Shown in pieces: positions 3,001 through 6,000 of a stretch of DNA of 64,000 nt. This DNA is from Trypanosoma brucei. Taxonomy: Eukaryota. The stretch is taken from assembly GCA_000002445.1 (NCBI GenBank), contig AE017150.2:1120001-1184000 (forward strand), given 5' to 3'. The first letter of the stretch is position 1. Each line of letters begins with the position of its first letter. Made by a program: the position numbers.

Positions 3001-6000
3001 GCCTCCATCCCTTCGTGCTATGCTTTTTCTTTTCCCCTGAAACTGACACAGTCTGTAGAGGCAGTGTGCTGAAGCTTCGCTAAGGTTTTGAAAGCAGGAC
3101 TCACGACCCATCCCCCACTGTGTAATGTGTGATGACCAGATTTGTTCTGAGGGAGCATCAAACCAATCGTGTACGATGGAAGTGTAGAATAGGAAGTAAA
3201 GGAAAGTGTATTATTATGTGCAGATGCGTATGAGGCACTGCTCACAACACCTAAAGAAAGCAAAGTCACTCCTGACGGTTTTGATCATTTTATCAGTGTA
3301 TCACAATCTAATCATTTCTGCTGTAGAAGGTTCGTTGCATAGTTGTGTGTATTCTGCTTTCAGAGTTGACATTCTGTCACTTACCACTGTGGCGAGTGAT
3401 GACGATGATATCGTCGGCTTTCCGGTATGGAAGGAAGTATCACTTTACTCTTCTGCTCGTATAAGCGTGCTTTGTTCATCCGTGGAGCGGTGTTGTTATT
3501 GAAAAGGGGATGCTGAGTAGAGTGGTGACTCAACGCTTTTTCTTGTACTGAAGACATACTAAGAGGTTCTGTCAGCAGGACAGACTTGCGGTGGCCAGGT
3601 GGTTTCGCGACCTCAGGGACAACTTCCATATTGCACAAGGGGAACTTCTTCGTTTTGAGGTGACAGGGCGCATGCTAGTGTTAGGATATCTGTACATTGG
3701 AATGGCAAGGTCTTCCAGGGAAGGAAGGGAGGTGTATAAACCAGTGAAGGGCTGCACAGGTACTGTGTCAGGTATGAAAGTGATAGAGGTCTCTAAGGAA
3801 GTGTCAGATGTGATTATACTCGGCAAGAGGTTGCTGCTCAAGGTTTTGATTATATACTTTCCGAAACAATCAAATGTTGCGAAAATTACGTTGAAAGAAA
3901 GTTTAGGGGGAGCAATGGGATAAGGGAAACCCTCACTGGATTGTTTTGTCGGGTATACAGCATGATAAGTGGAAGGTTTGGTGGAGAAGCACGCAGGTAC
4001 ACCACACCCAATTGGTGGGAGAGTAGTAATGGCCGGGAGTATTTACCGTGAGTGACAACTCCAACAATGGATGCTAAGTAGTTAATGTTGAAATGTTTTA
4101 AAACGTTAGAGAAAGGAATGACTAAATGGTTGTAGGTACGTAAATTGTGGGAAGCACTGAGGGAAAATGATGTAATGATGCGACGGACCAAGGGACTCGA
4201 ATACCCAATATATTACAAGAAACGCTACTATTGAGTTGGGTGCAGAAACAAGTGAGAGACAAGCTGTTTGGGTAGTTGAAGTATCGACCACTGGGAAGGG
4301 TGAAGCGTGGGCAGGAAGGATCATCAAATCTTATCCTCCTTTCAGTTAATATGACTGAAGAAGCGAGAAAAGAAAAAGAATGGTTGTGAAAAGAGAAATT
4401 AGCGAAAAAGAATTAGTAGAAGCAATTGTGGCGTCAAAAAAGACGTTAAGGGTAGCGTTAGTACAAATAGAAAAGCAGCCAACTCTAAAAAATTGGTTTC
4501 CGACGTAAAGGAAGCGGTAACAGGTGAATAAAACTATTTAATTTGTACCAGTTTACATGTATGAAAATGACCTCATATGTGTGTGATTTGCTCCTGTTAA
4601 CTCGGTGAACATCGGAACTGACACGTTGCTCTGTGCTATTGTAGCAATGCACTCCAGTGTGATATCACTGGAACTATGAAACCTTATATTTCTTATGGCG
4701 TTGTATCAGTGCTTCCACTATGGTATCATTATGTTAACGTGAGCAGTATATTGTCACGTGGTGGACAACATGTCAACTAGTTTGTTTAAACTGTTGCTCT
4801 CTTGACAGCTTGTAATTCGTATCATTCTGTTGTGTGCTTTTTTTTGTCTTGTTTATTCCCCTGAGATATTACTGGTAAGTCCCCCTTTATCCTAATTTTT
4901 GCATCTGCACTGGCTGTTTAAGCGGACCCTTTCCAATTGTTAGGCACAAAACGGTACATATATATATATTTCAAGAAAGCAACAGTGTGTAATTTAGAAA
5001 CCATGACACGCGCCTCGCTTCCTGTTATTGATGTTTCGCCCCTATTTGGTGGCGAATCCGCAGAAAAGGAAAGGGTCTCCAAGCAGATTGATAATGCATG
5101 CAGAACATGGGGCTTCTTCTACATTGTGGGGCATCCGATCCAGCAGGAGCAGATTGAGAGGGTGCTAGATGTAGCGAAGAATTATTTTTCACTCCCCATG
5201 GAAGAGAAGCTCCAATTGGACATTCGTAAAAGTAAGCTGTATCGTGGTTATATTGCTTTTGGGGCCGAGGACCCCGATGATGCTAAGGTCTACGGCTACG
5301 AGGGGTTCAATATGGGGCACCATCTTCCGAAGCACCACCCAGAGGTTATGGCAGGAGTGCCGCTCCGAGGACCGAACATCCACCCCACTCAGGTAAAGGG
5401 CTGGGCGGAGGAAATGGAAAATCAATATGACGATATGTGGGCCCTTTCACTTGTTATCCTGCGCGCTATGGCACTGGGACTCGGTCTGCGGGAAGATTTC
5501 TTCGACTCCAAGTTTATGGATCCGATGTGTGAATTGAATATAAAGCATTACCCTTCCCCAACCACTACAGGCAAAAAATCTCATTTGCTTATTGAGCACG
5601 CTGACTTTTGCGCTATTACATTACTCTATCAAGACGGTGTGGGTGGCTTGCAAATTCGAGGACTTTCCGGAGAGCTGATGGATGTGCCACCTGTTGAAGG
5701 AAGTTTTGTTGTCAACCTTGGAGACATGATGGAGATGTGGACCAATGGCCAATACCGTTCCACAAAGCATCGTGTGGTAGCCACAGACAAGGAACGGTAC
5801 TCCATGCCTTTCTTTTGCAATCCCAATCCGAATGTCATCGTCAAGTGCCTCGACAACTGTCACTCGGAAGAGAATCCACCAAGGTACCCTCCAGTGCGGG
5901 CTGTTGATTGGGTTTTGAAGCGGTTCGCGGAGGCATATGGGAAAGATTACTCAAAAATGTAGGAGTGGTTCCTAGTTTGCATTTCTTTTAGCATTTGCTT

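What the first reader, a model, noticed from the sequence alone, without database searches (positions are those of the whole stretch)
5171..5642. Oxygenase copy 1 is a gene-conversion mosaic with a divergent core between identical ends
Copy 1 is 100% identical to copies 2-4 over its first 56 codons and last ~105 codons. Its central ~157 codons (5171-5642 versus 15267-15738) are only ~70% identical at the protein level. Many of the changes are non-conservative, but the HxD...H/RxS catalytic residues are kept. The sharp identity breakpoints point to segmental gene conversion. One reading is homogenised ends around an older divergent paralog core; the other is an imported divergent tract. Either way it implies two functional oxygenase variants, possibly with different substrates.
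Basis: seen in the sequence. Interest (0 to 1): 0.5.

Follow-up and report, generated by a model that had tools for sequence, protein, structure and literature searches.

The report
Recombinant oxygenase gene in trypanosome array
In a Trypanosoma brucei tandem array, one oxygenase gene combines an old 'type A' middle with a front patch and a back end copied from neighbouring 'type B' genes, which is real but ordinary here because recombination in this array has already been published.

Summary
The window is T. b. brucei TREU927 chromosome 2: the array of nucleoside transporters (NT) alternating with 2OG-Fe(II) oxygenases, next to VSG genes.

Copy 1 (5003-5962) differs from copies 2-4 at 138 positions. 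All lie in 5104-5664 (75% nt identity; 66% aa over codons 52-221). Both flanks are identical.

The divergent core is not peculiar to copy 1. It is an old paralogue, type A, also found in T. b. gambiense, T. b. equiperdum and the next copy upstream in TREU927. Pure type A also has its own divergent 3' end (46-49 nt differences).

Copy 1 is therefore an A/B hybrid:
- Positions 5665-7450 (1,786 bp) are 100% identical to unit 3, and unit 1 is A-unit-like on both sides. This is a bounded, recent conversion tract.
- The 5' identity is a separate 132-bp B-like patch (4972-5103), shared with equiperdum A but absent from gambiense A.

In the core, dS is 0.88 and dN/dS 0.25, so both variants are under purifying selection.

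Jackson et al. 2010 already list this array with PHI p<0.001 and three GARD breakpoints. It is a known phenomenon and of low interest.

The parts
5003..5962 (+). Oxygenase copy 1. It is an exact match to XP_951749 (by the array's gene order in the literature this should be Tb927.2.6210; that identifier is inferred). It is an intact 319-codon A/B hybrid 2OG-Fe(II) oxygenase gene.
   Evidence: ORF and translation. 100% identical to P0001 of TREU927. Pfam DIOX_N 1.8e-32 and 2OG-FeII_Oxy 1.1e-24.
4972..5103 (+). 5' patch of 132 bp: 31 nt of upstream sequence plus cds 1-101. It has no differences from units 2 and 3. It is B-like relative to gambiense type A and is shared with T. b. equiperdum type A.
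   Evidence: Mismatch lists. In the A/B site classification, 10 consecutive B-type sites fall at 4997-5098 in both u1 and eA, while gambiense A differs there. gA versus eA: 9 differences in cds 1-101 against 3 in cds 102-662.
5104..5664 (+). Type A core (cds 102-662, codons 35-221). It holds 138 differences (75% identity) from the B copies and 2-3 differences from the gambiense and equiperdum type A genes.
   Evidence: dS 0.80-0.88, dN 0.20-0.23, dN/dS 0.25.
5665..5716 (+). Junction interval: 52 bp identical in A and B types, within which the A-to-B switch occurs. It encodes the conserved GELMDVPPVEGSFVVN strand.
   Evidence: The last A-specific site is 5664 and the first B-specific site is 5717. 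The site order is 137 A sites followed by 50 B sites. Sequences are shown.
5665..7450 (+). Conversion tract of 1,786 bp: the last third of the CDS plus about 1.5 kb downstream. It is 100% identical to unit 3.
   Evidence: Perfect identity between u1 5665-7450 and u3 26285-28070. The same tract has 17 differences from u2, 14 from u4 and 150-240 from A-type units. Six mismatches to u3 follow within 32 nt after 7450, where u1 becomes closest to the gambiense A1 unit (site tables).
26285..28070 (+). Inferred donor segment in unit 3: the 3' third of copy 3 plus downstream sequence.
4836..4880 (+). Short B-like patch in the upstream region of units 1 and 2. It is absent from the gambiense and equiperdum A units.
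   Evidence: 15-16 consecutive B-type sites.
15099..16058 (+). Oxygenase copy 2, type B.
   Evidence: XP_951751.
25623..26582 (+). Oxygenase copy 3, type B. Its 3' part is identical to that of copy 1.
36168..37127 (+). Oxygenase copy 4, type B.

Best explanation
The window holds the last four and a half units of the roughly 10-kb tandem array on T. b. brucei TREU927 chromosome 2. In this array, nucleoside-transporter genes (NT2-NT7) alternate with putative 2OG-Fe(II) oxygenase genes ('iron/ascorbate oxidoreductase').

The array contains two old oxygenase paralogues:
- Type A: the gene upstream of the window, and the only type in the gambiense DAL972 and T. b. equiperdum assemblies.
- Type B: copies 2-4 of the window.

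Pure A and B differ in the core (cds 102-662) and again in the 3' part (cds 715-951), and in about 0.7 kb downstream of the stop codon.

Copy 1 began as a type A gene. Homologous recombination between misaligned repeat units then copied a 1.7-1.8 kb stretch from a unit-3-like B unit over its last third and downstream sequence. This was non-reciprocal gene conversion. The left end of the tract falls in a 52-bp stretch that A and B share. The event is recent, because no difference from unit 3 has accumulated.

An earlier and much shorter conversion (no more than 132 bp) had already made the start of the gene B-like in the brucei and equiperdum lineage.

The core has escaped homogenisation for a long time. 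It evolves under purifying selection in both types, so the array encodes two diverged enzymes plus one natural A/B hybrid.

Shown here: the tract limits, the identities, the site patterns, dN/dS, and the presence of A in the gambiense and T. b. equiperdum assemblies and of B in a T. equiperdum assembly.
Inferred: the direction of transfer, the recombination mechanism, and that all three isoforms are active.
For: - Identity of the locus: 100% protein match to TREU927 on a 1,193,948-bp contig. The array is described in PMC2771046.
- Existence of type A: P0121, P0122 and P0123 share the c1 core but have a different C-terminal part.
- DNA comparison: c1 versus A has 2-3 differences in cds 102-662 and 48-49 in cds 663-960. 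c1 versus c3 has 138 and 0.
- Site order: 137 A sites then 50 B sites. The single exception is private to equiperdum.
- Bounded tract: 5665-7450 is 100% identical to u3, with A-like or gambiense-A1-like sequence on both sides.
- 5' patch: present in c1 and equiperdum A, absent from gambiense A.
- Age and constraint: core dS 0.88 with dN/dS 0.25. Brucei versus gambiense A has dS 0.017. The Tb versus T. congolense orthologue pair has pS 0.68-0.78, which is saturated.
- No outside donor for either core.
- B is not specific to TREU927: the T. equiperdum OVI copy is 1 nt from c3.
- Published recombination tests on this same array: PHI p<0.001 and GARD 3 breakpoints (PMC2854126 Table 2).
Against: - The DNA of the upstream TREU927 type A gene could not be fetched, because TREU927 is not indexed. 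The direction of transfer (B 3' end into an A gene, versus A core into a B gene) therefore rests on parsimony.
- Unit 2 shows that an A-like upstream region can sit in front of a B gene. The upstream flank of unit 1 alone is therefore not diagnostic.
- The hybrid protein is found only in the TREU927 reference. No independent assembly confirms the junction.
- The gambiense and equiperdum arrays may be collapsed in their assemblies.
Confidence: 0.75

Rival explanations
1. Imported core. Copy 1 was a B-type gene in a unit like unit 2 (A-like upstream region, B gene). It received a tract of about 740 bp (about 4927-5664) copied from the upstream type A gene.
For: Unit 2 has exactly this background: A-like up to 4919 and B from 4927. 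Units 1 and 2 are 98-100% identical over 2000-4800. The c1 core differs from the type A protein P0121 at only one residue.
Against: This reading does not explain why 5665-7450 is 100% identical to unit 3 in particular (17 differences from u2, 14 from u4). It also does not explain why that identity stops abruptly at 7451, where u1 becomes most similar to the gambiense A1 unit. At least two events are needed, against one for the favoured model.
Confidence: 0.12
2. A single unequal crossover between an A unit and a B unit created a hybrid gene, with no conversion involved.
For: There is a clean single switch from A to B inside the gene. Copy number varies between strains, which shows that unequal exchange does occur in this array (PMC4288722).
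Against: After a crossover, everything distal to the junction should be unit-3-like. Instead identity to u3 ends at 7450, and the following NT gene is only 71-85% identical to that of unit 3. A second exchange is needed, which amounts to a conversion or double crossover.
Confidence: 0.05
3. Assembly artefact. The reference joined reads from an A unit and a B unit within the repeat, so the hybrid gene does not exist.
For: This is a 10-kb tandem repeat in a Sanger-era assembly. The hybrid protein occurs only in TREU927 records. No look-up in other assemblies found it.
Against: The junction lies in only 52 bp of shared sequence, between regions about 25% and about 16% divergent. Any single read across it would have to be chimeric. 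Misjoins are expected in long identical stretches, not here. The gene is intact, and the right-hand boundary is equally sharp.
Confidence: 0.05
4. No recombination. The ends are identical because they are strongly constrained, and the core is free to vary.
For: The junction region and the motifs in the C-terminal part are conserved across the family.
Against: There are no synonymous differences in the ends, and about 1.5 kb of non-coding downstream sequence is identical. The orthologous type A genes have 46-49 differences in the same 3' part.
Confidence: 0.01

Closest known systems
Sequence mosaics and concerted evolution in T. brucei tandem gene arrays (Jackson 2007, PMC1855330; Jackson et al. 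2010, PMC2854126, Table 2, array 12bii 'Iron-ascorbate oxidoreductase, Tb927.2.6180')
   Same: It is the same array and the same phenomenon. The paper lists 5 copies in T. b. brucei and 2 in T. b. gambiense, one shared isoform and one isoform specific to brucei. It reports PHI p<0.001 and 3 GARD breakpoints over 960 sites.
   Different: The paper gives only the table row. It does not say which copy is recombinant, where the tracts end, that the tract runs 1.5 kb past the gene, or that the 5' patch is shared with equiperdum. Those details come from this analysis.
Segmental gene conversion that builds mosaic VSG genes in T. brucei
   Same: Both involve patchwise, homology-guided copying between diverged paralogues in the same genome, and a VSG array lies directly next to this locus. 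The general mechanism is from established knowledge; see also the abstract of PMC7015903.
   Different: This case involves housekeeping-type enzyme genes in a core-chromosome tandem array. It is a germline-like fixed event. It is not part of antigenic variation or expression-site switching.
2OG-Fe(II) oxygenases with a DIOX_N domain (isopenicillin N synthase / thymine-7-hydroxylase-like; nearest solved structures 9ovh, 6jyv, 5c3p)
   Same: Both Pfam domains score above the gathering threshold. The HxD...H triad and the RxS motif are present. The protein aligns over 280 residues to 9ovh at E=1e-58.
   Different: The substrate is unknown. Both A and B carry replacements at columns that are more than 95% conserved in the (Pseudomonas-heavy) family sample. 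The 'thymine-7-hydroxylase' labels on kinetoplastid homologues are annotations, not tests.
Hybrid genes from conversion between tandem paralogues in other organisms, such as human gamma-globin HBG1/HBG2 or CYP21A2/CYP21A1P (recalled from own knowledge)
   Same: These also show a bounded conversion tract between neighbouring duplicates, identical flanks beside an older divergent segment, and junctions in short shared stretches.
   Different: This is a different organism and gene family, and no disease or pseudogene is involved. Both partners here look functional.

Membership tests
Gene-conversion mosaic within a tandem array | Paralogues lie in tandem repeat units in the same orientation | tested here: met
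   Five units spaced 10.05-10.9 kb apart, with four oxygenase copies on the + strand.
Gene-conversion mosaic within a tandem array | Differences are clustered with sharp breakpoints, beyond chance | tested here: met
   Maximum chi-square 131, against at most 27 in 200 permutations. All 138 differences fall in 561 of the 960 nt.
Gene-conversion mosaic within a tandem array | Different segments have different closest relatives (two identifiable parents) | tested here: met
   137 A-type sites followed by 50 B-type sites. c1 has 2-3 differences from A in the core and 0 differences from c3 in the 3' part.
Gene-conversion mosaic within a tandem array | The tract is bounded on both sides, which distinguishes conversion from a single crossover | tested here: met
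   100% identity to u3 only over 5665-7450, with A-unit-like sequence on both sides.
Gene-conversion mosaic within a tandem array | Identity extends to synonymous and non-coding sites | tested here: met
   dS = 0 in codons 222-319, and about 1.5 kb of intergenic sequence is identical.
Gene-conversion mosaic within a tandem array | Non-reciprocity and direction of transfer | not testable with these tools
   This needs the pre-event haplotype or the DNA of the upstream A gene. TREU927 is not indexed.
2OG-Fe(II) oxygenase superfamily (PF03171 with PF14226) | Both Pfam domains score above the gathering score | tested here: met
   c1 scores 112.9 and 87.0 bits against cut-offs of 27.3 and 23. c2 scores 116.5 and 94.5 bits.
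2OG-Fe(II) oxygenase superfamily (PF03171 with PF14226) | HxD...H iron-binding triad and RxS 2-oxoglutarate-binding motif | tested here: met
   H199/D201, H256 and R265/S267 are present in A, B and the hybrid. They align with the EHTD, PHRV and RLSFPFF motifs of 9ovh.
2OG-Fe(II) oxygenase superfamily (PF03171 with PF14226) | 2OG-dependent catalytic activity | not testable with these tools
   The literature found gives no biochemical data. PMC2771046 describes the genes as not functionally characterised.
Thymine-7-hydroxylase | Substrate-binding residues of T7H, or demonstrated activity on thymine | not tested
   There is only a sequence match to 5c3p at E=4.8e-42, weaker than the matches to 9ovh and 6jyv. 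The name appears on homologues as an annotation.
Hybrid gene from a single unequal crossover | All sequence distal to the junction derives from the second parent unit | tested here: not met
   Identity to u3 ends at 7450. The downstream NT gene is 71-85% identical to that of u3.

The most novel reading that the evidence does not exclude
The A and B cores may be kept apart by selection because the two enzymes act on different substrates in bloodstream-form parasites. The substrates could be nucleobase- or nucleoside-related, given the strict alternation and co-regulation with the NT2-NT7 transporters. Copy 1 would then be a functional natural domain swap: the A substrate pocket and HxD motif joined to the B distal histidine, RxS motif and C-terminal tail. 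That would give TREU927 a third enzyme specificity that other strains lack.
Probability: 0.12. Interest if true: 0.5.

Novelty: already known. Interest (0 to 1): 0.2.

Why it matters
The result gives a precisely mapped example of how concerted evolution and divergence coexist within one T. brucei array. Short and long conversion tracts repeatedly homogenise the gene ends and the intergenic DNA. A 560-bp core has stayed distinct for a long time under purifying selection.

It also corrects the gene-level picture. TREU927 encodes three oxygenase isoforms (A, B and an A/B hybrid). The sister-subspecies assemblies examined that include the array's downstream end (gambiense DAL972 and T. b. equiperdum) carry only A.

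This is useful for anyone designing copy-specific probes, knock-outs or expression analyses of these uncharacterised genes, which are up-regulated in bloodstream forms. It opens no new question, because recombination in this array and in T. brucei arrays generally is already published.

Tried and rejected
- Fetching the TREU927 sequence upstream of the window (the pure type A gene) and the chr 9 paralogue by exact-protein look-up failed. TREU927 is not indexed.
- I looked for a gambiense B-type copy at the end of locus L001, to decide whether the gambiense 5' differences are lineage-specific. The array ends there instead, running into the same unique sequence as window ~46.8 kb.
- A literature search for the inferred identifier Tb927.2.6210 found nothing. 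Jackson 2007 does not mention this array in its main text.
- I considered importing the core from another paralogue (chr 9, chr 5/7) and rejected it, because neither core is closer to any of them than to the other core.
- I considered positive selection as the cause of the core divergence. This is not supported at the whole-segment level: dN/dS is 0.25, and the highest 30-codon windows reach 0.6-0.8 around codons 166-240. There are too few sequences for site tests.
- I did not map the A/B replacements onto a 3D model, because the structure tools return no coordinates.

Full report
**What the locus is**

The window carries a direct repeat with a period of about 10.05-10.9 kb. There are five units, and the last is truncated after 4.2 kb. 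Each full unit holds a 319-codon ORF with the Pfam domains DIOX_N and 2OG-FeII_Oxy, and a nucleoside-transporter ORF of about 462 codons. A VSG gene and VSG-like ORFs follow the array.

Copy 1 is 100% identical to a TREU927 protein on a 1,193,948-bp contig. Copies 2-4 match three further TREU927 entries. The literature describes this array as follows:
- All of these genes are more highly expressed in bloodstream forms (PMC2771046; PMC2837033).

**Checking the observation**

With the true start codons, the copies are c1 5003-5962, c2 15099-16058, c3 25623-26582 and c4 36168-37127.
- c1 differs from c3 at 138 nt, all between window 5104 and 5664. There is no difference in cds 1-101 or cds 663-960.
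- Protein differences run from codon 52 to codon 221 (66% identity). Within it, identity is 74.4% (nt) and 67.5% (aa).
- The best two-breakpoint partition is 5158-5664, with chi-square 131 against at most 27 in 200 permutations.
- HxD (199-201), H256 and RxS (265-267) are present in all copies.

**The divergent core is a conserved paralogue**

The 90%-identity cluster of copy 1 also contains three other proteins:
- a second TREU927 protein (XP_951747, the copy upstream of the window);
- two identical T. b. gambiense DAL972 genes;
- a T. b. equiperdum gene.

These share the c1 core but have a different C-terminal part (...VVPRSGTRYSMPFFCVPNPNVIIKC...AEVFSLAKPKM). I call this type A, and copies 2-4 type B.

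I fetched the DNA of the gambiense and equiperdum genes. Differences by segment:

| Comparison | cds 102-662 | cds 663-960 |
|---|---|---|
| Pure A versus B | 138 | 46-49 |
| c1 versus A | 2-3 | 48-49 |
| c1 versus c3 | 138 | 0 |

Along c1, 137 A-type sites are followed by 50 B-type sites. The only exception is private to equiperdum. The switch lies between 5664 and 5717. Copy 1 is therefore an A/B hybrid.

**Extent of the 3' tract**

In a seven-way alignment of whole units, unit 1 is perfectly identical to unit 3 from 5665 to 7450 (1,786 bp; u3 26285-28070). Over the same tract it has 17 differences from unit 2, 14 from unit 4 and 150-240 from the A-type units.

Immediately after 7450 there are six mismatches to unit 3 within 32 nt. 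From there unit 1 is closest to the gambiense unit that follows the first A gene. Upstream of the gene, unit 1 is A-unit-like.

A tract bounded on both sides by sequence of the other type indicates gene conversion or a double exchange, not a single unequal crossover. The absence of any difference from unit 3 makes the event recent. The hybrid protein is found only in TREU927.

**The 5' end is a separate event**

Taking gambiense A and units 3 and 4 as references, unit 1 shows this pattern:

| Window positions | Type in unit 1 |
|---|---|
| up to 4825 | A-like |
| 4836-4880 | B-like |
| 4883-4971 | mainly A-like (one B-type site, 4894) |
| 4997-5098 | B-like (maximal patch 4972-5103, 132 bp) |
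| from 5104 | A-like |

The equiperdum A gene carries the same 4997-5098 patch but not the 4836-4880 one. Gambiense A and equiperdum A differ at 9 of 101 nt at the start of the gene, against 3 of 561 in the core. This cannot be uniform mutation. The simplest reading is a short B-to-A conversion in the brucei/equiperdum lineage, older than the 3' event.

Consistent with this, the gambiense assembly has no B copy. Its array runs NT-A-NT-A-NT and then ends. The T. b. equiperdum assembly has NT-A-NT. A B copy 1 nt from c3 exists in T. equiperdum OVI.

**Age and selection**

| Comparison | dS or pS | dN | dN/dS |
|---|---|---|---|
| A versus B, core | dS 0.80-0.88 | 0.20-0.23 | 0.25 |
| Pure A versus B, 3' part | dS 0.48-0.70 | 0.12-0.15 | 0.21-0.25 |
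| Brucei versus gambiense A, core | dS 0.017 | | |
| T. brucei chr 7-type gene versus T. congolense counterpart | pS 0.68-0.78 (saturated) | 0.09-0.12 | |

If synonymous rates are comparable, the A/B split is much older than the Trypanozoon subspecies. It is probably younger than the brucei/congolense split. Amino-acid change has been roughly twice as fast as between the conserved orthologues.

In the core, A and B are 66% identical. Each is 61% identical to the chr 9 paralogue and 51-56% to the chr 5/7 type and to the T. vivax and T. congolense proteins. Neither core was imported from another paralogue, and both have diverged to the same extent. Both carry replacements at columns that are more than 95% conserved in a (Pseudomonas-heavy) family sample. 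Some lie next to the HxD motif: P184V in B and G203C in A.

This fits two constrained but diverged enzymes. Different substrates are plausible but untested.

**Rival explanations**

- Import of an A core into a B gene. This is possible because unit 2 shows an A-like upstream region in front of a B gene. It does not explain the exclusive, sharply bounded identity to unit 3, and it needs at least two events.
- A single crossover. This is contradicted by the right-hand boundary.
- Misassembly. This cannot be excluded without reads. It is unlikely because the junction lies in only 52 shared bases between strongly divergent segments.
- Constraint alone. This is refuted by dS = 0 in the ends, the identical non-coding DNA and the divergent 3' end of pure A.

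**Comparison with what is known**

Jackson (2007) showed that T. brucei tandem arrays combine concerted evolution with sequence mosaics (PMC1855330). Jackson et al. (2010) tested this very array (Table 2, 12bii, Tb927.2.6180). They report 5 brucei and 2 gambiense copies, one shared and one brucei-specific isoform, PHI p<0.001 and three GARD breakpoints (PMC2854126). Carnes et al. (2015) note that these loci vary among Trypanozoon strains (PMC4288722).

The phenomenon is therefore already on record for this array. This analysis adds the anatomy: which copy is recombinant, the parents, the exact tract limits, the separate 5' patch and the selection regime.

**Verdict**

The 'older paralogue core with homogenised ends' reading is favoured. 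The finding is an ordinary, already documented feature of T. brucei tandem arrays, so its interest is low.

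Noticed in passing
window 10367-20414 (unit 2); switch at the equivalent of u1 4919-4927, about 15015-15023: Unit 2 is itself a hybrid unit. Its intergenic region is A-unit-like (98-100% identical to unit 1 and close to the gambiense A units) up to about 80 nt before the start codon. From there on it is B-type.
   Followed up: partly
L001, L002 (T. b. gambiense FN554965.1), L003 (T. b. equiperdum CM010673.1), L006 (T. equiperdum OVI): Array size differs between assemblies. TREU927 has 5 oxygenase and 6 NT genes. 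Gambiense has NT-A-NT-A-NT and T. b. equiperdum has NT-A-NT, both without a B copy. B is seen elsewhere only on a 3.1-kb T. equiperdum contig. This could be real copy-number variation or assembly collapse.
   Followed up: partly
window 8353-9741 (NT gene after copy 1), 18452-19843, 28974-30374, 39520-40908: The transporter genes are mosaics as well. For example, 8986-9120 of the first is 98% identical to the gambiense NT that follows the first A gene, but 71-75% identical to all other units.
   Followed up: partly
window 22983-23520, and the equivalent positions in units 4 and 5: Units 3-5 carry a 468-bp insertion that is absent from units 1 and 2 and from the gambiense and equiperdum A units. 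Its nature was not examined.
   Followed up: no
window 41824-46060, then 46061 onward: The fifth unit matches unit 4 at 99.5% for 4,237 nt and then the array stops. The unique sequence that follows (ORF 46802-47722, no Pfam hit) is also the end of the array in gambiense and equiperdum.
   Followed up: partly
window 53926-62456, minus strand: A full-length VSG (58227-59708, PF13206 at 2e-62) lies here, together with several shorter VSG-like ORFs that may be pseudogenes or fragments. This fits the start of the subtelomeric VSG array.
   Followed up: no
window 24191-24661, 34733-35203, 45597-46166 (minus strand): A 156-189-codon ORF is conserved in the intergenic region of units 3-5 and is called as a gene in gambiense (L001 19439-19909). 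It has no Pfam hit on record in the gambiense gene call and was not scanned here; it may not be coding.
   Followed up: no
proteins P0025-P0120: The trypanosomatid oxygenases are about 48-50% identical over 97% of their length to Pseudomonas and other proteobacterial 2OG oxygenases. That is nearly as close as they are to Leishmania homologues (about 51%), which hints at an old bacterial origin for the family.
   Followed up: no
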